A DNA stretch of 64,000 nucleotides, from positions 33,778 through 97,777 of IMG/VR virus record IMGVR_UViG_3300020160_000328; one strand, given 5' to 3'. The stretch is from a virus. A program made the position numbers and the translations under genes. The notes under the pieces were generated by a model that worked only from the letters and a program-made list of their open reading frames with translations, had not been told where the DNA came from and did not search any database. Shown here piece by piece: positions 20,293-32,499 of the stretch; positions within the stretch are counted from its first letter, which is position 1; every line of letters starts with the position of its first letter.

Positions 20293-20460
20293 ATGTATAG
20301 ATTTCACATATCATATAAAGACCTTGAGAAGAATGATAAATTCTTAAGAGGTGCTAATGTTATTCTTCAAGAAGATAATATTATAGAAGCATTGCGTACA
20401 TTTCAAAATGAGTATCATAACACAGAGATTCAAGGAGTCTTAAGATCAATTGTAGAGTAA
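20293..20460 (+). CDS. Small hypothetical protein (55 aa)
   Basis: MYRFHISYKDLE...; stop overlaps the ATG of the AAA+ gene. Confidence 0.5.
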   Translation: MYRFHISYKDLEKNDKFLRGANVILQEDNIIEALRTFQNEYHNTEIQGVLRSIVE

Positions 20461-21791
20461 TGCACGAAGAAAATAAATACGAAGTAGCAGAAGTAATTGA
20501 AGATAAGGGAACAATAGTACCTGACTTTGATTTAGATAGATTAGCTAAAGACATTGATGATGTCTTTCAAAAGCAATTAGAAAGAAAAATAAGTGAACTT
20601 AGATTAGATTCTAATAAATTGTTACATGAAGTTGATGATAAATTAACTGAACAATTTACAGGATTTAAACAAAGAGTTGACTCTATATTTCCTGATATTA
20701 AAGAAAGATTAGTAGAGGAAATACAAAGAGGTAGAACTATTATTGTTTTACCTAGTACACAAGAAATTAATGTACAACATATGGATCATCCTGTAACTGA
20801 AGGTGCTATTAAATCACTACAGTTACAAAGAAAACTTATGTTAGTAGGTCCAGCAGGAACAGGTAAGACTACAATGGTAGAGAAAATAGCAAAATCATTA
20901 GATATTGCATTTTATAAATACTCTTGTTCTAGAGATTCATCTGTACATGATTTATTAGGTTATAAACAACCAACTTCAGAAACATATTTAGAAACAACAT
21001 TTCTAAATGCTTATGAAAATGGTGGTATATTCCTTGTAGATGAATATGATGCAATGTCTGGAGATATGGCTCTATTCTTTAATGGTGTAGCAGATAATTC
21101 TAAATTCATATCTATTCCTCATAGAGATACTAAACCACAAGCAGAGAAACACAAAGACTTTTATTTAGTTATGTGTGGTAATACTTGGGGTAAAGGTTCT
21201 ACTGATTATTCAGGTAGAGATTTTCAAGATATGGCTCTAATGGATAGATTTAGATTTTGTAGACATCATGTTGGTTATCATCATTTACTTGAAAAAAAGT
21301 TTATGAAACATAATTATGAGAGTATATCAAGATTAAGATCTGCATTAGAAAATGTAGGTTCTTATTTATCTACAAGAAATGTAGAAGATATTGCTATTTT
21401 AATTGAGTGTGATGTACCATTTACTAATATATTGGATATGGTTCTTCAAGATCTTGCAGAAGATGATAAAAGAAGAATTAAAGATTCATTAAGAAGTGAA
21501 AGAGTTACAAAATCAGCACCAGTTCAAAGAGAGGTACAAGAACCACAAAGACCTAATTTTGATCCTACTTTAAATGTTAGAGATGGTCAAGGTAGAATCT
21601 TTAAGTTAACAGATTTAATGAAAGCTTATCCAGTTAATCAACCACATAGAATGGAACAATTAAAGACAAGAGATAAAGTTCTACATGGTAGATACTTAGG
21701 TATGTTAATGCAACAAAGTATACCTACATCTGGTATGGTAAGTAGTGATTGGGAGGACCATAATGGAGTTATTAGATCAAGTAGCTGGTAA
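20460..21791 (+). CDS. AAA+ ATPase, MoxR/CbbQ/CobS-like
   Basis: GPAGTGKT, FLVDEYD, GNTWG, ALMDRF. Confidence 0.85.
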   Translation: MHEENKYEVAEVIEDKGTIVPDFDLDRLAKDIDDVFQKQLERKISELRLDSNKLLHEVDDKLTEQFTGFKQRVDSIFPDIKERLVEEIQRGRTIIVLPSTQEINVQHMDHPVTEGAIKSLQLQRKLMLVGPAGTGKTTMVEKIAKSLDIAFYKYSCSRDSSVHDLLGYKQPTSETYLETTFLNAYENGGIFLVDEYDAMSGDMALFFNGVADNSKFISIPHRDTKPQAEKHKDFYLVMCGNTWGKGSTDYSGRDFQDMALMDRFRFCRHHVGYHHLLEKKFMKHNYESISRLRSALENVGSYLSTRNVEDIAILIECDVPFTNILDMVLQDLAEDDKRRIKDSLRSERVTKSAPVQREVQEPQRPNFDPTLNVRDGQGRIFKLTDLMKAYPVNQPHRMEQLKTRDKVLHGRYLGMLMQQSIPTSGMVSSDWEDHNGVIRSSSW

Positions 21792-22600
21792 TGAAACCAA
21801 CATTCTTATATAAGACCTTAGAATCAGGTTCTAAACTTATAAGATTTGATAATCTAGGTGATATATATTATTTTGATGAAGAAGAGAATAATCCTAGAGG
21901 ATTAGGACATAGAGCTTCAGAAGAATACTTTAGAGATAGAAATATCTTAACATCTAGAAAACAGTTAATGATACAGAAAGCTCAAAAAGAGCTTTCTGTT
22001 GATAAAGAGTTCTTAGATTTAGTTTATAAAGCTAAATCAGCTAAAAGAGATTTTAAGTTAAATAAATTTGGAGGTAATTTATCTATGCCACATTATGCTG
22101 CACAAAATGATAAAGTATTTAAGAAAGGAACACCTGGTGCAAAGAAATCATCTTTGAATATGGCATTCCAAGTAGGTACATTCAGTGGTGGTAATTATGA
22201 TGAATCTTTTACAAGGATACTAAAGACTATATTAATGTGTCAAGCAATGAATATTAGTGTAAGTATTGATGTATTTGATTCAGATACTAGAGCAATAGGT
22301 GGTAGAAATGGTTATGTTATATGTAATGTAGCTAAATCTAATGAAAAGATAAACTTCAGAAATATATTAGCTTCATCTCATTCAGATTTCTTTAGTACTA
22401 CATTATTTAATGGTTATAGTGCTTCAGGATGTCAAGAACATATTGGTAGATTTCTTCCACAATCTTTAATTGTGAGAGATTTAGGTCCAATGTATGATGT
22501 CATTGGAGGTAATATGCTATTAGATGGTATGGAAGATGAACAAAAACAAAAACAAATGGTAAGTAAAATTCTTAAAATAGGTATCAATGGGTCAAGATAA
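21791..22600 (+). CDS. Putative vWA-like partner of the AAA+ ATPase
   Basis: Translationally coupled to the ATPase; alpha/beta pattern; no clear MIDAS motif. Confidence 0.4.
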   Translation: MKPTFLYKTLESGSKLIRFDNLGDIYYFDEEENNPRGLGHRASEEYFRDRNILTSRKQLMIQKAQKELSVDKEFLDLVYKAKSAKRDFKLNKFGGNLSMPHYAAQNDKVFKKGTPGAKKSSLNMAFQVGTFSGGNYDESFTRILKTILMCQAMNISVSIDVFDSDTRAIGGRNGYVICNVAKSNEKINFRNILASSHSDFFSTTLFNGYSASGCQEHIGRFLPQSLIVRDLGPMYDVIGGNMLLDGMEDEQKQKQMVSKILKIGINGSR

Positions 22601-24261: not shown

Positions 24262-25953
24262 ATGACTAAATCTAATTCAAAATTAGCTAGTATTATAGGT
24301 GAAAAAAAGCCTAAACAAGAATTAGTAGAAGCTAAAGCTATCCCAAAACCTGATGCTAAGAATCAACAAGGATTACCTGCTTATACACAAGATATGTGGT
24401 TAAAATTACTTACAATGTTAAATACATTGAAGTTACAACCACAATATTACAGAACAGAACAGAAGACATTAAAGGAATTACAAGATCTTATTAAGCTTTG
24501 TGCTACACAAGATTTGTATTTTACTTGTCAATGTATTGTATATTCTAGATGTCTTGGAGAAGGTATGAGAACTATTTCTCATGCAGCAGCAGTATTTGTA
24601 GCTCCTTACATTTCAGGTCAAGAATACTCTAAAAGATTCTATGGACCTTGGGATAAGAAAAAGAAAAGAGGTGGATTAATCTATAGACCTGATGATATGA
24701 GTGAAATCATATCAGGATTTGTAGCTTTAAATGGTGAGTATAAAACTACCACTATTACCACAAAAGAAGGTACTTCTACTACTGTAGATATTTCAGGTAC
24801 TAAGTTAACTAATGCAATGAAGAAAGGTTTTAAAGCTGCTATTGAATCATATGATACATATAGTTTGCTTAAATACAAATCTTCATTAATTGATGTTATT
24901 AATTTAGTACATCCAAAACCTTCAGAATCTCAAGCTACTGTTAAAGTAGAAGGAGAAGATGTTTACACTATTGATGCTATTATGAGAGGTATGAATGTAC
25001 TAGCTGAAACTTGGGAAGTATCTCAAGGTGAAGCAGGTCAGATAGTAGCTAAAGCTGTAAAAGAAGGTAAACTAGATGAAACTGAAGCTAAAGAAGTATT
25101 AACTCAAGCTAAAGCTGATAATTGGGCTGAATTGTTAGATAATAACAAATTACCTATACTAGCTTGTCTAAGAAACTTAAGAAACATTCTTATTAACAAT
25201 CCTACACAGGCTACTGTTGATAAAGTATGTGCATTAGTTTCTAATCCTAAGTTAATACTTGAAGGAAAGATATTTCCTTATCAATTAGATTTATCTAATG
25301 AGATTATGCTTACTGAGTTTAATGATGGTAAAGCAAGACAAATATCACAAGCATTAGCTAAAGGATATGAACTAGCTATACCTAATCTTAAAGCTTTATT
25401 ACCAGGTGATAATGTAATCTATTTAGACCAATCAGGTTCAATGGGTACACCTATTATATTGAGTGGTAAAGATAGAAAGTATGGTAAATCTCAATGTATT
25501 GATAAAGCTGCCCTAATTGCTGCTACAATAGCTAAAGCAACTAATGCTGATATTATTGTATTTGGTTCAACTGCTAAATATGTATCTTATAATCCTAATT
25601 TAGATGTATTCACATTAGCTAAACAATTATCTTCTGCTCATATGGGTGGAACTAATTTGTCTACAGCTTGGAATGCAGCTCAAAACTCTGGTAAGAAATA
25701 TGATAGAGTATTTATCTTATCAGATAATGAAGTAAATCAAGGTAGTACATATAATGCTTATACATCTTATTTAAGAGCTGTAGGTAGTCCTTATGTATAT
25801 TCTGTAGATCTAGCTGCTTATGGTACAAATTGTATTGCAGGTGATAAAGTTAGATATTACTATGGTTATGGATTTAGTATGTTTGATGATATTGCATCAT
25901 CAGAATTTAATGCTAATTATCATATTGAGAAAGTTAAACAAGTAATTATATAA
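24262..25953 (+). CDS. Ro60/TROVE-vWA RNA-binding protein
   Basis: N.QG.PAY start, GMRTISH, RPDDMSE, MKKG, LKY...L.DVINLVHPKP, LRNLRNIL; vWA MIDAS DQSGSM, GGTNLS, ILSDNE. Confidence 0.9.
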   Translation: MTKSNSKLASIIGEKKPKQELVEAKAIPKPDAKNQQGLPAYTQDMWLKLLTMLNTLKLQPQYYRTEQKTLKELQDLIKLCATQDLYFTCQCIVYSRCLGEGMRTISHAAAVFVAPYISGQEYSKRFYGPWDKKKKRGGLIYRPDDMSEIISGFVALNGEYKTTTITTKEGTSTTVDISGTKLTNAMKKGFKAAIESYDTYSLLKYKSSLIDVINLVHPKPSESQATVKVEGEDVYTIDAIMRGMNVLAETWEVSQGEAGQIVAKAVKEGKLDETEAKEVLTQAKADNWAELLDNNKLPILACLRNLRNILINNPTQATVDKVCALVSNPKLILEGKIFPYQLDLSNEIMLTEFNDGKARQISQALAKGYELAIPNLKALLPGDNVIYLDQSGSMGTPIILSGKDRKYGKSQCIDKAALIAATIAKATNADIIVFGSTAKYVSYNPNLDVFTLAKQLSSAHMGGTNLSTAWNAAQNSGKKYDRVFILSDNEVNQGSTYNAYTSYLRAVGSPYVYSVDLAAYGTNCIAGDKVRYYYGYGFSMFDDIASSEFNANYHIEKVKQVII

Positions 25954-26917: not shown

Positions 26918-26929
26918 TAAAAATATTTA

Positions 26930-26980
26930 AAATATTTAACCTATCTCTTGGTAGGTTAAATATTTTTCTTTAAATTTGCA
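26930..26980 (+). promoter_or_regulatory. Promoter of the RNA island with overlapping inverted repeat
   Basis: TAAATTTGCA at 26971-26980; aaatatttaaccta/taggttaaatattt inverted repeat. Confidence 0.55.
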
Positions 26981-26988
26981 CAGTTGAA

Positions 26989-27192
26989 ATGGAAATAACT
27001 ATTGATAAGACCTATTTACTTAAACCTCTTATAGTTGATGTGAAAGTAGCTAGTGATGGTAAGTTAAGAGATATATTAACTTTAGTAGGACATATGTATC
27101 TATATGGTAGAATAAAAGGTAGATATAGTTATCATAAAATCCTTGATGAAGCAATTGAAGAAGAAACAAAAAGAAGAAAAACAAGGGAGTGA
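26989..27192 (+). CDS. Hypothetical protein; stop codon lies inside the tmRNA 5' end
   Basis: ORF track. Confidence 0.45.
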   Translation: MEITIDKTYLLKPLIVDVKVASDGKLRDILTLVGHMYLYGRIKGRYSYHKILDEAIEEETKRRKTRE

Positions 27193-27522
27193 CATGGAAT
27201 TGACTACCTATTATATAGTATATAATTCAGCCTAGAGAGATAACTAGTAAAACTAAGGTGAAATAAGTAAATGGAAAAGATTCAAAACAAATCGAAGCTA
27301 ACATGACTGTAGTACATAACATCTTAAATGGTGGTGTATCAGTTAAATCAACTCAAAGAGTAGAAATGGCATTAGCAGCATAAAACTTATAGGTTAGTAA
27401 GTTCCTTAATACTTACAAAGCATACAAAAATATCTAACTTAAAGATATAAAAGAAAAGTAAGCTGTAAAAAATTATATATCTTGAAGTATGTAACACGGG
27501 AGTTCGAGTCTCCCCACTTCCA
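27185..27522 (+). ncRNA. ssrA: tmRNA
   Basis: GGGAGTG/CACTTCC-A acceptor with G3:U, 5' GACATGGAATTGAC, T-arm GGGAGTTCGAGTCTCCC, tag frame ending MALAA-stop at 27383. Confidence 0.92.
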
Positions 27523-27534
27523 CAATATAATACA

Positions 27535-27649
27535 ATAGGGTAGTTATAGTAAACTTACTTCGTGAAATTGGTATACACATTTGTCTTAAGAACAAACTTT
27601 TGCTGGTTCAAGTCCAGCAGTAATAAATGTTTACTAACTTTCTCCCTAT
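27535..27649 (+). ncRNA. Y-RNA-like scaffold copy 1; cargo is an acceptor-less tRNA-Leu(TAA) mimic
   Basis: ataggg/ccctat, tagtaaac/gtttacta, TTACTTCG; D-, anticodon and T-arms inside. Confidence 0.75.
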
Positions 27650-27653
27650 AAAT

Positions 27654-27728: not shown

Positions 27729-27850
27729 AATAAGAATAGTAATAATTAACTTACTTCGTGCTTTTTGGAAAGCATTTCACTTTTAATGAAACAATCAGGT
27801 TCAAATCCTGCGGGAGAGATCCCACTAGTTAATTAAATTTCTTTCTTATT
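27729..27850 (+). ncRNA. Y-RNA-like scaffold copy 2; cargo is an acceptor-less tRNA-Lys(TTT) mimic plus a GAGA hairpin
   Basis: aataagaa/ttcttatt, taattaac/gttaatta, TTACTTCG. Confidence 0.75.
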
Positions 27851-28030: not shown

Positions 28031-28034
28031 CTAC

Positions 28035-28251
28035 AAGAGTGGTAAAAAATAGGTTACTTCGCAAAAATTCTATGAGAGTTCTTCTCATAAAACTTGATAC
28101 TAATGGTATCTTACTAAACACTATGAAAATTAGACAGTTAAATGGGGTAAATTTAAACAAACGAAATTTAACAAACTTTTACTAATTTAGTTATAAATTG
28201 GAACCTTTATTGGAAGGATAAACCAATAACCCTATTTTTAATTTCCCTCTT
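28035..28251 (+). ncRNA. Y-RNA-like scaffold copy 3; cargo is a multi-hairpin insert of about 170 nt
   Basis: aagag/ctctt, aaaatagg/cctatttt, TTACTTCG. Confidence 0.7.
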
Positions 28252-28256
28252 TTTAA

Positions 28257-28342: not shown

Positions 28343-28345
28343 CAA

Positions 28346-28412
28346 AGGAATAGTAATATAAGAGTTACTTCGTAAGCTATACAAAAAATAAACTCTTATA
28401 ATTTTCTTTCCT
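28346..28412 (+). ncRNA. Y-RNA-like scaffold copy 4 (minimal)
   Basis: aggaa/ttcct, tataagag/ctcttata, TTACTTCG. Confidence 0.75.
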
Positions 28413-28416
28413 AAAT

Positions 28417-29052: not shown

Positions 29053-29198
29053 AAAGAAGAGTAGTAAAAAGAAAGTTACTTCTATGTGGCAGACGTAGTA
29101 TAGGTTCAAATCCTGTCATACTCCCTAAAGTAATACAAATGGAGTATGTAGTGTAATTGGTTAGCACACGAAAATTACTTTCTTTATTTTCTCTCTTT
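29053..29198 (+). ncRNA. Y-RNA-like scaffold copy 5; cargo is a circularly permuted tRNA domain (YrlA architecture)
   Basis: T-arm, then catactcc-loop-ggagtatg closed acceptor stem, then D-arm, inside gaagag/ctcttt and aaagaaag/ctttcttt. Confidence 0.8.
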
Positions 29199-29657: not shown

Positions 29658-29743
29658 GCCTTCATGGTGGAATGGTAGACACGAGGGACTTAAAATCCCT
29701 TCCTCAGAAATGGGGGGTGCAAGTTCGAGTCTTGCTGGAGGTA
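29658..29743 (+). tRNA. tRNA-Leu(TAA)
   Basis: Class II cloverleaf. Confidence 0.9.
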
Positions 29744-29872
29744 CAAGTATTGCAAAGATACTGATTAAAAACCTGTTCCCTGTCCTCATAACAGCTATAA
29801 GGCAGCTAGGAGTTGAATGTACATTCGGGGTTATAAAAAGTACAAGGGTAAGTTAGGGTTCTTACCAAATTT

Positions 29873-30289: not shown

Positions 30290-30367
30290 ATAACAGTAGT
30301 AAATGAAAGGTTACTTCGTAAATTTATGGTATTTAACAACACAAACTTTTCAAATCTTCTCTGTTAT
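30290..30367 (+). ncRNA. Y-RNA-like scaffold copy 6 (short cargo)
   Basis: ataacag/ctgttat, tgaaagg/cttttca, TTACTTCG. Confidence 0.75.
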
Positions 30368-30463: not shown

Positions 30464-31228
30464 ATGACTAAAAAATTATGCGTACAACTTGGATTAAGAG
30501 AAAAAGTTGAGACAAATTTCAAGAATATGCTTGATGATATGTTCAAGAAATTTAAGAACAATCAAGGAATATTCTTTGGAGAAAGAAAAACTTATCAAGC
30601 CTTAGATGGTTTTGCTGATGAACCTACTAAAAGAGGTTTCACTAATGTACAGTCTACTGTAGGAGAGCAATTAGCTTGGATGGAAGAACACACTAAAGAC
30701 TTTATGGATGTAATCTTTAGTATTGAGAAAACAAATGCTTCAGGAGTAGTTGTAGCTGAACTAGTAGTAGATGGAGAATCTTGGGGAACTTATAGCTCAT
30801 TAGAGTTACTTAGATTAAAAACTACATTAGATAATTCTAAATATAAAGAATTATACAAAGAAATTCCTATTAGACCACAAACAGAGTTATGGGCATTATC
30901 TGATGATGAAGCTTTTACAGGTAAATTAGTGTATGAAACTCCTATTGATGAAGGTTATTCTAAAACTACAGTTAAGGAATCTTATATCTTACCTGATTTA
31001 CAACAAGGAAGACCTCCACAAGTTGCGGAGAAATCTAATCAAGTAAATATTGGTAAATATACCACTCAAAGATTTACTGGTGCTATTTCACTACAAGAAA
31101 GAGCAGTAATGCAAAGAAAATATGACACTTTATATAAAGCTGTTATAGAAGCATTAGAAAATGCAAACAATGTTGATTCATTAGAATCAGATTTAGGTAC
31201 AAAAATTATGAAATATCTTCATAATTAA
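30464..31228 (+). CDS. Uncharacterised helical protein inside the RNA island
   Basis: 254-aa ORF, the only large protein gene among the tRNAs. Confidence 0.75.
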   Translation: MTKKLCVQLGLREKVETNFKNMLDDMFKKFKNNQGIFFGERKTYQALDGFADEPTKRGFTNVQSTVGEQLAWMEEHTKDFMDVIFSIEKTNASGVVVAELVVDGESWGTYSSLELLRLKTTLDNSKYKELYKEIPIRPQTELWALSDDEAFTGKLVYETPIDEGYSKTTVKESYILPDLQQGRPPQVAEKSNQVNIGKYTTQRFTGAISLQERAVMQRKYDTLYKAVIEALENANNVDSLESDLGTKIMKYLHN

Positions 31229-31235
31229 AAAATAA

Positions 31236-31447
31236 AGACTCTAGCTTTAGCATTAGATTTAGCACTTTGATAGCATTCGTTAGAATAAGTGTTGTGAGTC
31301 AAGCTTTAGTGTGAGCAATGTAGAAAGCCAATAGACTATATATTTCCATGTCAGGGGTTCAAATCCCCTACAGTCCTCTAATTAAAAGATAGCACAGGGA
31401 CTGTTAGTTCAGTGGTAGAACAGGAATTTTAAGCTTAAAATCTATTG
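31236..31447 (+). ncRNA. ncRNA: AG-repeat tract plus circularly permuted tRNA-like domain
   Basis: T-arm agggg-ttcaaat-cccct, acagtcc...ggactgt, D-arm gttc-agtggta-gaac, closed by ttcc/ggaa and caataga/tctattg. Confidence 0.75.
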
Positions 31448-31505
31448 AATGTGAGTAAACACAAAAACCTCCACAACGAAGGATATTGACCTGTGGAGGT
31501 TATAT

Positions 31506-32469: not shown

Positions 32470-32499
32470 AAGTCTGTACAGAAATGTACAGACTTTTTT
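32470..32499 (+). terminator. Intrinsic terminator closing the tRNA cluster
   Basis: aagtctgtaca-gaaa-tgtacagactt plus T run. Confidence 0.85.

What the first reader, a model, noticed from the sequence alone, without database searches (positions are those of the whole stretch)
27555..27630. Acceptor-less tRNA-Leu(UAA) mimic as cargo of copy 1
Seen: a Leu-type D-arm (gtg-aaattggtata-cac), anticodon arm tttgt-CTTAAGA-acaaa and T-arm gctgg-ttcaagt-ccagc in normal order, with the scaffold helix in place of the acceptor stem. This is the opposite topology to YrlA, which keeps the acceptor stem and loses the anticodon. It cannot be aminoacylated but displays an intact anticodon loop, and a normal tRNA-Leu(TAA) is also encoded. 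Inference: a decoy for anticodon nucleases or tRNA-modifying enzymes.
Basis: partly seen in the sequence, partly recalled or inferred. Interest (0 to 1): 0.75.

Follow-up and report, generated by a model that had tools for sequence, protein, structure and literature searches.

The report
tRNA-shaped cargo on phage Y-RNA scaffold
A 98-kb phage encodes, next to its Ro60 gene, a small RNA in which a leucine-tRNA-derived body with an intact anticodon arm is welded by its acceptor end into a conserved Y-RNA-like stem; this extends known Ro60 tRNA mimics to a near-complete tRNA, but the anticodon itself is not conserved in relatives.

Summary
Window 27534-27650 (+) is one RNA element. It has an outer stem P1, an internal loop (TAGTTA / ACTTTCT), an 8-bp stem P2 and the invariant motif TTACTTCG. 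Inside sit a D arm, an anticodon arm (CUUAAGA, anticodon UAA), a 5-nt variable loop and a T arm, in native order.

It is not strictly acceptor-less. Five acceptor-type pairs (TTACT/AGTAA) remain, fused to P2. ARAGORN and Rfam both call it a tRNA (45 bits).

The scaffold occurs 87 times on the Ro60 strand and never on the other strand in 61 Ro60-anchored phage loci. It follows Ro60 even in a phage locus with no tRNA calls, and its helices covary. About a fifth of the copies carry native-order tRNA bodies.

In orthologous sets the tRNA body is strongly conserved. The anticodon triplet changes at about the synonymous-site rate and includes A34 and nonsense anticodons. The positional orthologue of this copy has CAU.

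My reading: a Ro60-associated Y-class RNA with a tRNA-Leu-derived, non-chargeable, shape-based tRNA mimic. A Leu-specific decoy role is not supported. It is a new variant of a known kind (YrlA, Yrn1). This scan's first readers had already noted the same scaffolds on this genome.

The parts
24262..25953 (+). Phage Ro60 orthologue (TROVE + Ro60 vWA domains), the presumed protein partner
   Evidence: Pfam TROVE E = 9e-8 and vWA_Ro60 E = 2e-6. It is the only neighbourhood protein conserved across 60 related loci.
27535..27540 (+). P1 5' strand (ATAGGG), pairs with 27644-27649
   Evidence: covariation in alignment A2 (helix 1)
27541..27546 (+). Conserved 5' internal-loop motif TAGTTA (family consensus TAGTAA)
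27547..27554 (+). P2 5' strand (TAGTAAAC), pairs 8/8 with 27629-27636
   Evidence: 7 of 8 P2 pairs show changes on both sides across orthologues (helix 2)
27555..27562 (+). Invariant scaffold motif TTACTTCG. In this copy its first 5 nt form the acceptor remnant and its last G opens the D stem.
   Evidence: 6 matches in the window against 0.14 expected. 87 exact scaffold motifs on the Ro60 strand and 0 on the opposite strand in 61 loci.
27562..27578 (+). D arm: 3-bp stem GTG/CAC with 11-nt loop AAATTGGTATA (A14, G18 G19, A21 present), Leu-type
   Evidence: 15/17 identical to the D arm of the L129 tRNA-Leu(UAA)
27580..27596 (+). Anticodon arm TTTGT-CTTAAGA-ACAAA; anticodon UAA at 27587-27589, U33, G37
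27597..27601 (+). Short (5-nt) variable loop CTTTT; the long Leu variable arm is absent
27602..27618 (+). T arm GCTGG-TTCAAGT-CCAGC (G53, T54 T55 C56, A58, C61)
27619..27623 (+). Acceptor remnant 3' strand AGTAA, pairs with TTACT at 27555-27559
27624..27628 (+). 5-nt bulge TAAAT joining the acceptor remnant to P2. Group A relatives have a GNRA mini-hairpin here.
27629..27636 (+). P2 3' strand GTTTACTA
27637..27643 (+). Conserved 3' internal-loop motif ACTTTCT (family consensus AAYTTTCT)
27644..27649 (+). P1 3' strand CCCTAT; tRNA-Asp starts 5 nt later (27654)
29658..29744 (+). Canonical type-II tRNA-Leu(UAA) of the same array (comparison partner, not part of the element)

Best explanation
Window 27534-27650 encodes a Y-RNA-class noncoding RNA of the phage's Ro60 system, not a decoding tRNA.

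Proposed steps (the structure is shown by the analyses here; everything else is marked):
1. It is co-transcribed with the tmRNA/tRNA array, which lies between two terminator-like hairpins. Its ends are probably set by processing of the flanking tmRNA and tRNA-Asp (inferred).
2. Its 5' and 3' ends pair into the conserved module P1 / internal loop (UAGUWA opposite AAYUUUCU) / P2 / UUACUUCG. I infer that this module is the Ro60-binding site.
3. The cargo is a tRNA-Leu(UAA)-derived body that has lost the long variable arm and the top of the acceptor stem. It keeps every nucleotide needed for the L-shape.
4. Its 5-bp acceptor remnant runs straight into P2, so there is no free CCA end. It should therefore not be aminoacylated or enter translation (inferred).
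5. The module most likely works through shape. It would be a tRNA-like handle that lets Ro60, and whatever nuclease Ro60 recruits, engage tRNA-binding factors. Alternatively it could compete with real tRNAs for such factors.

The identity of the anticodon triplet is not the selected feature in this class.
For: Structure:
- Three arms plus the scaffold fold within 1 kcal/mol of the MFE.
- It is called a tRNA by two programs.
- On 8 relatives with native-order cargo, 95.8% of cells pair against 45-50% when the 3' partners are slid. 19 pairs change on both sides; 0 of 500 shuffles reach this.

Link to Ro60:
- The gene lies 1.6 kb upstream on the same strand.
- 87 exact scaffold motifs lie on the Ro60 strand and 0 on the other strand in 1.04 Mb of 61 Ro60 loci, against 0.38 in shuffles. 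Ro60 identity in these loci goes down to 28%.
- Among polA-related contigs, all 4 with Ro60 have scaffolds, including L205, which has no tRNA calls. The 3 contigs with at least 7 kb upstream and no Ro60 have none.
- No other neighbouring protein is conserved.
- Other copies of the same scaffold carry YrlA-type cargo (T arm, closed acceptor, D arm).

Not a decoder:
- Acceptor positions 1-2 belong to P2, which pairs 8/8. This leaves 5 of 7 acceptor pairs, whereas most array tRNAs pair 7/7.
- There is no long variable arm.
- Relatives carry A34 and nonsense anticodons.
- Infernal aligns Group A relatives only to tRNA model positions 3-68.

Shape, not anticodon:
- In 8 independent orthologue pairs the triplet differs at 13 of 24 sites and the rest of the body at 64 of 543 (p = 1.5e-6).
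- Ro60 four-fold sites differ by 17-66% in the same pairs.

Precedent: YrlA and Yrn1 are Ro60-bound tRNA mimics, and Yrn2 is co-transcribed with tRNA-Asp and Yrn1 (PMC4201824).
Against: - No binding, expression or end-mapping data exist for this RNA. Ro60 binding is inferred from co-occurrence only.
- The scaffold shows no recognisable canonical Ro-binding sequence, and Rfam YrlA does not hit this copy.
- For this copy specifically there is only one positional orthologue (L131). It has a different body, so purifying selection on W1 itself is not shown.
- W1 differs from that orthologue at 20 of 61 body positions.
- In some relatives (Group B) the embedded tRNA has a full 6-7-bp acceptor, an A discriminator and even an encoded CCA. 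Some class members may therefore be released as real tRNAs.
- In a genome with 29% G+C, a second UUA decoder would be useful.
Confidence: 0.6

Rival explanations
1. It is a working second tRNA-Leu(UAA). P1/P2 would be only a leader-trailer helix of the precursor. RNase P and 3' trimming would release a 74-nt tRNA that receives CCA from the host enzyme, is leucylated, and helps decode the abundant UUA codons of this AT-rich phage.
For: - ARAGORN and Rfam call it a full-length tRNA.
- A73 is present, as are all tertiary-interaction nucleotides.
- Related phages have free-standing short-variable-arm tRNAs with UAA or UAG anticodons (L130:16078, L121:15150 and 15327).
- Group B relatives have complete acceptor stems.
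- M. smegmatis YrlA is cleaved by RNase P and receives CCA in vivo (PMC4201824).
- Genome G+C is 29%.
Against: - Positions 1-2 and 71-72 are mismatched, and 1-2 are perfectly paired in P2 instead.
- Most other tRNAs of the array pair 7/7.
- It is redundant with the canonical tRNA-Leu(UAA) at 29658.
- It has G37 after A36, whereas the phage's own tRNA-Leu has A37.
- Orthologous embedded bodies carry A34, UUA and UCA anticodons and change anticodon freely. Working decoders would not be expected to do this.
Confidence: 0.13
2. One reading: a Ro60-protected decoy or inhibitor aimed specifically at a host enzyme that recognises the tRNA-Leu(UAA) anticodon loop, either an anticodon nuclease or a modification enzyme.
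For: - The anticodon loop is intact and exposed, with 7 nt, U33 and the UAA triplet.
- The phage also supplies a genuine tRNA-Leu(UAA).
- Copy 2 likewise mirrors the phage's tRNA-Lys(UUU).
- Competitive inhibition of an anticodon nuclease has been proposed for YrlA (PMC7790460).
- Anticodons that differ between lineages could reflect host-specific nucleases.
Against: - The triplet is not conserved: the positional orthologue has CAU.
- Across orthologue sets the triplet changes at the same rate as synonymous sites, so there is no excess that would signal diversifying selection.
- G37 makes the loop an imperfect copy of tRNA-Leu(UAA).
- The UAA triplet is simply inherited from the tRNA-Leu ancestor of the body.
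- I know of no Leu(UAA)-specific anti-phage nuclease (own knowledge).
Confidence: 0.12
3. The cargo is a decaying tRNA-Leu pseudogene that happens to lie in the variable slot of a repeated intergenic RNA element. Only the scaffold matters, whether as a Ro60 site or a processing stem.
For: - The cargo slot is free to vary: 20-nt and 27-nt cargos in copies 4 and 6, and about 160 nt of hairpins in copy 3.
- At the orthologous site of copy 2, the cargo is a Lys-like body in the window, a Leu(UAG)-like body in L130 and non-tRNA sequence in L121.
- W1 has lost the variable arm and the acceptor top, and its D stem is only 3 bp.
Against: - W1 keeps U8, A14, G18 G19, U33, G53, T54 T55 C56, A58 and C61, and all spacings.
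- Its 5-bp acceptor pairing sits in a register 3 nt away from that of Group A. This is the register that preserves the canonical distance from the acceptor helix to the D arm (the shift as compensation is my inference).
- In larger orthologue sets the embedded tRNA bodies diverge 5-12% while synonymous sites diverge about 50%, which indicates purifying selection on the fold.
Confidence: 0.12

Closest known systems
YrlA (Rfam RF02553), the bacterial and phage Ro60-associated Y RNA with a tRNA-like domain
   Same: - Encoded beside Ro60.
- The 5' and 3' ends pair into a long stem interrupted by asymmetric internal loops.
- The effector module mimics tRNA, with T and D arms carrying the tertiary-contact nucleotides.
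- Several Y RNAs occur per genome.
- The same phage scaffold also carries YrlA-type cargo (copy at 29055-29197), and a separate YrlA-like RNA lies at 31328-31451 (35 bits).
   Different: - YrlA is permuted (T arm, closed acceptor hairpin, D arm), with the Ro stem in place of the anticodon stem and no anticodon loop.
- W1 is in native order (D, anticodon, variable, T), with the stem at the acceptor position and a canonical 7-nt anticodon loop.
- The Rfam YrlA model does not hit W1.
- The scaffold loop motifs (UAGUAA, AAYUUUCU, UUACUUCG) are not those of the YrlA consensus.
Deinococcus radiodurans Yrn1
   Same: Ro60-bound. As described in PMC4201824, the stem formed by the RNA ends occupies the acceptor position, and an anticodon-like stem-loop lies between D-like and T arms. 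That is the same orientation as W1.
   Different: - Yrn1 has a 6-nt loop, no variable region and an incomplete D arm; no dihydrouridine was detected (PMC4201824).
- W1 has a complete cloverleaf body that standard tRNA finders accept.
- W1 belongs to a multi-copy phage family with many different anticodons.
- No sequence homology was tested.
Canonical tRNA-Leu(UAA) (Rfam RF00005)
   Same: - Cloverleaf scoring 45 bits.
- Leu-type 3-bp D stem and long D loop.
- UAA anticodon and A at position 73.
- D and T arms each 15/17 identical to a genuine phage tRNA-Leu(UAA) in L129.
   Different: - No long variable arm.
- Only 5 acceptor pairs.
- Ends buried in an 8-bp scaffold helix.
- G37 instead of A37.
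Thermus phage phiLo Ro60 with Yrl1/Yrl2 (PMC12135203)
   Same: A phage-encoded Ro60 with phage-encoded Y-like RNAs next to the gene. These were shown to bind Ro60 and to form a complex with host PNPase.
   Different: As described, the phiLo Yrls are stem-bulge-stem RNAs with a CGAA motif. No tRNA-like body with an anticodon arm is reported, and there is no tRNA-array context.

Membership tests
Y RNA (Ro60-associated ncRNA) | Encoded adjacent to a Ro60/TROVE gene and co-oriented with it | tested here: met
   Ro60 lies at 24262-25953 (+) and W1 lies 1.6 kb downstream on the same strand. Scaffold motifs number 87 on the Ro60 strand and 0 on the opposite strand in 61 loci. The scaffold tracks Ro60 among polA relatives.
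Y RNA (Ro60-associated ncRNA) | Long stem formed by pairing of the 5' and 3' ends, interrupted by a conserved bulge or internal loop that holds the Ro60 site | tested here: inconclusive
   The stem architecture is met and covaries. The canonical Ro-binding sequence of animal or Deinococcus Y RNAs was not recognised. The loop motifs here differ, and no Rfam Y-family model hits W1.
Y RNA (Ro60-associated ncRNA) | Physical binding to Ro60 | not testable with these tools
   Needs EMSA or RIP.
YrlA (RF02553) | Permuted tRNA-like domain: T arm, closed acceptor stem-loop, D arm; no anticodon arm | tested here: not met
   The order in W1 is D, anticodon, variable, T. There is no YrlA hit at E up to 5. 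The consensus structure is shown.
tRNA (RF00005) / functional tRNA-Leu | Cloverleaf above the Rfam gathering score | tested here: met
   45.1 bits against 29; ARAGORN calls tRNA-Leu(taa).
tRNA (RF00005) / functional tRNA-Leu | Seven-pair acceptor stem whose ends can be freed for CCA addition and aminoacylation | tested here: not met
   5 of 7 pairs. Positions 1-2 pair in P2 instead. Most other array tRNAs pair 7/7.
tRNA (RF00005) / functional tRNA-Leu | Long (type II) variable arm of bacterial tRNA-Leu | tested here: not met
   The variable loop is 5 nt. Caveat: related phages have free-standing short-arm UAA and UAG tRNAs.
tRNA (RF00005) / functional tRNA-Leu | Anticodon conserved among orthologues | tested here: not met
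   The L131 positional orthologue has CAU. The triplet diverges at about the neutral rate in orthologue sets.
Yrn1-type Y RNA (D. radiodurans) | Ro stem at the acceptor position with an anticodon-like arm between D-like and T arms | tested here: inconclusive
   The topology matches the published description (PMC4201824).

The most novel reading that the evidence does not exclude
Phage Ro60 RNPs form a widespread modular system, found from roughly 100-kb AT-rich phages to 200-kb phages and a crAss-like gut phage. In it, one conserved scaffold displays near-complete tRNA bodies whose anticodon triplets are free to change. These would act as uncleavable or sacrificial shape-decoys, or as Ro60/exonuclease-recruiting baits, against host tRNA-targeting immune nucleases. 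W1 would be a member recently built from a tRNA-Leu(UAA) gene.
Probability: 0.22. Interest if true: 0.85.

Novelty: new variant of a known kind. Interest (0 to 1): 0.62.

Why it matters
Known bacterial Y RNAs mimic only part of a tRNA, and what that mimicry is for is still open. Here a phage lineage mounts almost whole tRNAs, anticodon arm included, on one conserved Ro60-linked stem. It does this in several copies per genome, with swappable cargo.

This gives a natural series for asking what the tRNA module recruits:
- a minimal scaffold,
- a YrlA-type cargo,
- a native-order cargo,
- bodies that differ only in the anticodon.

The pattern of a conserved body with a free triplet argues that shape, not codon identity, is read.

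There is also a practical consequence. These elements are called as ordinary tRNA genes by ARAGORN and Rfam. In GenBank they are annotated as tRNAs, for example tRNA-Tyr and tRNA-Lys upstream of Ro60 in phage csAssE-Sib. That inflates phage tRNA counts and creates spurious suppressor or A34 'tRNAs'.

Tried and rejected
- Whole-collection scan for TAGTAA-N-TTACTTCG. It returned mostly single, chance-level hits. Follow-up with a loose 'full scaffold' test and Ro60 searches of those records was uninformative: fragmentary contigs, weak criterion.
- Metagenome scan for closer relatives. Nothing closer than about 73% Ro60 identity was found, so conservation of W1's own loop at short distance could not be tested.
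- Diversifying selection on the anticodon. The triplet is 8.8-fold more variable than the body, but it matches four-fold-site divergence of Ro60 in the same pairs. I therefore read it as unconstrained, not as positively selected.
- Membership in YrlA. The Rfam model does not hit W1 or the scaffold copy with YrlA-type cargo. It hits only the separate element at 31328-31451.
- A conserved protein partner other than Ro60. None was found; the AAA_5/MoxR-like ATPase upstream is shared only with the closest relatives.
- MITE or DNA repeat. Rejected because stems differ in sequence between copies while keeping their pairing, and all copies lie on one strand.
- Generic RNase III stem. Not excluded, but it does not explain the invariant loop motifs or the tracking with Ro60.
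- W1 as a degraded Group A body. Rejected in favour of descent from a tRNA-Leu gene.
- My first acceptor-pair count for free-standing tRNAs was wrong because ARAGORN end coordinates vary. It was redone.

Full report
**Context.** The window is part of a 97,777-bp virus record with 29% G+C. A TROVE + Ro60-vWA protein is encoded at 24262-25953 (+). Two terminator-like hairpins on the + strand, at 26929-26966 and 32470-32495, bracket an RNA-gene array. The array holds a tmRNA-like gene (27185-27525; Rfam 29 bits, below the gathering score), about 22 tRNA calls, a YrlA-like RNA (31328-31451; 35 bits, below the gathering score) and a repeated element. No tRNA in the array encodes CCA.

**The observation.**
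- ARAGORN reports tRNA-Leu(taa) at 27553-27626.
- Rfam tRNA gives 45.1 bits over the full model.
- ARAGORN's drawing shows a 3-bp D stem with an 11-nt loop, a 5-bp anticodon stem with loop CUUAAGA, a 5-nt variable loop and a 5-bp T stem with loop UUCAAGU. The acceptor has a mismatched top (A.A, C.U).
- The two mismatched 5' bases are the last two bases of an 8-bp helix, P2 (TAGTAAAC 27547-54 with GTTTACTA 27629-36).
- Outside P2 lie an internal loop (TAGTTA / ACTTTCT) and a 6-bp helix, P1 (27535-40 / 27644-49).
- The full model (P1, P2, 5-bp acceptor remnant and three arms) evaluates to -24.1 kcal/mol, against an unconstrained MFE of -25.1.
- RNAfold on its own recovers P1, P2, the anticodon arm and the T arm (z = -2.5).

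So 'acceptor-less' should read 'acceptor fused to the scaffold'. Five pairs remain and there is no free end.

**The scaffold is a family.** TTACTTCG occurs 5 times on the + strand of the array, and 6 times in the window against 0.14 expected. Together with a TTACTTCT copy this gives six elements: 27534-27650, 27730-27849, about 28034-28255, 28344-28413, 29055-29197 and 30290-30367. All share P1 / TRGTWA / P2 / TTACTTC(G/T) / cargo / P2' / AWYTTTCT-like / P1'. Their stem sequences differ but keep pairing. No further convincing copy lies elsewhere in the genome. The cargo is:
- a tRNA-like body in copies 1 and 2;
- about 160 nt of hairpins in copy 3;
- 20 and 27 nt in copies 4 and 6;
- a T arm, closed acceptor and D arm (YrlA-type) in copy 5.

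**Link to Ro60.** Ro60-anchored searches of IMG/VR gave 60 loci, with Ro60 identity from 73% down to 28%.
- In 1.04 Mb, the exact motif TAGTAA-N7-11-TTACTTC[GT] occurs 87 times on the Ro60 strand and never on the other strand. Shuffles give a mean of 0.38. With slightly relaxed loop motifs there are 121 copies.
- No neighbouring protein other than Ro60 is shared across these loci.
- As a cross-check I anchored on DNA polymerase instead. All four loci that contain Ro60 have scaffolds. One of them, L205, has no tRNA calls, yet two scaffolds lie within 0.6 kb downstream of the matched part of its Ro60 gene.
- The three polymerase loci with at least 7 kb of upstream sequence and no Ro60 have neither tRNAs nor scaffolds.

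I therefore take the scaffold to be the Ro60-binding module. That is an inference from co-occurrence and from the architectural analogy with YrlA. No binding data exist, and the loop motifs are not the canonical Ro-site sequence.

**Native-order tRNA cargo is a recurrent class.** ARAGORN calls a tRNA starting at the motif in 25 of the 121 copies. They fall into two groups.
- Group A:
  - It is usually the first element after Ro60.
  - It uses motif bases CTTCT as the 5' strand of a 5-bp acceptor remnant (with AGAAG).
  - A GNRA mini-hairpin follows, then P2'.
  - Infernal aligns these copies to tRNA model positions 3-68 only.
- Group B has its own 6-7-bp acceptor that begins at the motif's last G. 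It has an A discriminator followed by NCA, and in some cases CCA.

An 8-sequence alignment of native-order elements, scored against the proposed structure, gives 95.8% paired cells against 45-50% for slid partners. 19 pairs change on both sides, and 0 of 500 shuffles reach the observed values.

The class reaches a published crAss-like phage, csAssE-Sib. The two genes annotated there as tRNA-Tyr and tRNA-Lys, directly upstream of its 'Ro sixty-related protein', both sit behind a GGTGA-N-GTTACTTCG scaffold.

**What is conserved.**
- In eight independent orthologue pairs, the anticodon triplet differs at 13 of 24 sites and the rest of the body at 64 of 543 (odds ratio 8.8, p = 1.5e-6).
- Four-fold degenerate sites of the adjacent Ro60 gene differ by 17-66% in the same pairs. 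The triplet therefore changes at about the neutral rate, while the body is strongly constrained.
- Group A orthologues often keep the anticodon stem ATTTT/AAAAT, U33 and a purine at position 37. Their triplets are UAA, UCA, UUA, AUC, GCA, GAU, UUC, UUU, UUG and UAG.
- L138 and L139 are near-identical bodies carrying GCU and GUG.
- A34 anticodons and ochre- or opal-reading triplets occur. This does not fit a decoding role.

**This copy.**
- W1's positional orthologue, L131:13640, has P2 TAGCAAAC against W1's TAGTAAAC. It carries a Group-A-like body with anticodon CAU.
- W1's own body is closest to a genuine type-II tRNA-Leu(UAA) in L129, with the D arm and the T arm each 15/17 identical. The UAA triplet is inherited from a tRNA-Leu ancestor that lost its long variable arm.
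- W1's acceptor pairing (TTACT/AGTAA) sits in a register 3 nt away from that of Group A. This register keeps the normal spacing to a 3-bp D stem opened by the motif's G. It suggests the L-shape geometry has been maintained.
- W1 has G37 after A36, unlike the phage's own tRNA-Leu.
- No closer relative was found in the metagenome collection.

**Mechanism.** Shown here: the structure, the family, the Ro60 association and the constraint pattern. Inferred:
- co-transcription and end formation through flanking tmRNA and tRNA-Asp processing (Yrn2 is made with tRNA-Asp and Yrn1 as one precursor; PMC4201824);
- Ro60 binding at the scaffold;
- no aminoacylation;
- a shape-based role as a tRNA mimic that tethers Ro60, and perhaps host PNPase as in phage phiLo (PMC12135203), to tRNA-binding factors, or that competes for such factors.

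Competitive inhibition of an anticodon nuclease was suggested for YrlA (PMC7790460). It remains possible here in a form that does not depend on the anticodon. The Leu-specific version is not supported.

**Known versus new.** Ro60-bound tRNA mimics are known (YrlA). The orientation with the stem at the acceptor position and an anticodon-like arm is described for Yrn1, though with a 6-nt loop and an incomplete D arm (PMC4201824). I found no paper in the held library that describes complete native-order tRNA bodies on a Ro60 scaffold, their modular multi-copy arrangement in phage tRNA arrays, or their free anticodons. I class this as a new variant of a known kind.

Earlier first-reader notes of this scan on the same genome had already described the six scaffolds and the unpermuted cargo. 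I re-derived these independently.

Noticed in passing
window 27730-27849: Copy 2 of the scaffold carries a second native-order body. It has a 6-bp hairpin in the D position, an anticodon arm TTTCA-CTTTTAA-TGAAA (UUU, Lys-like), a T arm, and a closed GGGA-GAGA-TCCC hairpin where the acceptor 3' strand would be. Rfam tRNA gives a partial hit to model positions 10-63 (32 bits). At the orthologous site L130 has a Leu(UAG)-like body, L183 a Lys(CUU)-like body and L121 a non-tRNA 33-nt cargo.
   Followed up: partly
L121:15150-15224, L121:15327-15401, L130:16078-16152: Free-standing tRNAs of 75 nt with UAG or UAA (Leu) anticodons, good acceptor stems and A73, but only a short variable loop. The L130 gene sits where the window has its normal type-II tRNA-Leu(UAA). 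Type-I 'tRNA-Leu' in these phages is unusual for bacterial systems.
   Followed up: no
L196 (OR575929.1, phage csAssE-Sib) 7600-7870: The annotated tRNA-Tyr and tRNA-Lys directly upstream of the Ro sixty-related gene of this crAss-like gut phage are both embedded in the same GTTACTTCG scaffold. They are probably Y-type RNAs rather than ordinary tRNAs.
   Followed up: partly
L132:11820, L150:9182, L165:11900 (UUA); L140:1630, L147:11935 (UCA); L135:5512 (AUC); L136:7703 (AGG): Scaffold-embedded tRNA bodies carry nonsense-reading or A34 anticodons. Annotation pipelines would report these as suppressor, SeC or odd tRNAs.
   Followed up: partly
L121:14437-14577 and L131:15919 onward: A third cargo topology: anticodon arm (UUU), variable loop, T arm, closed acceptor hairpin, D arm. 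This is a whole tRNA circularly permuted at the D/anticodon junction and mounted on the scaffold.
   Followed up: no
window 27185-27525: A phage tmRNA-like gene lies immediately upstream of copy 1 (Rfam tmRNA 29 bits, below the gathering score of 47). The L131 homologue scores 60.6 bits.
   Followed up: no
window 30464-31451; L130:17687-18660: A DUF7873 protein gene (Pfam E = 2e-37) is followed by a YrlA-like RNA (31328-31451, Rfam 35 bits) that uses a different closing stem from the six scaffolds. The gene-plus-RNA pair is conserved in L130.
   Followed up: partly
window 20460-22600: An AAA_5 (MoxR/dynein-like) ATPase and a 269-aa protein lie upstream of Ro60, which has a vWA domain. They are shared only with the closest relatives (L121, L131), so they are not a constant partner.
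   Followed up: partly
L124:18409-18482, L130:18726-18802: tRNAs with a CUA (amber-reading) anticodon occur in related arrays. This may indicate stop-codon reassignment or suppression in these phages.
   Followed up: no
L205:4277-6100: A polA-related phage contig has a divergent Ro60 (25% identity to the L170 type), no tRNA calls and two scaffold copies within 0.6 kb downstream of the matched part of its Ro60 gene. This is the cleanest natural case of Ro60 plus scaffold alone.
   Followed up: partly
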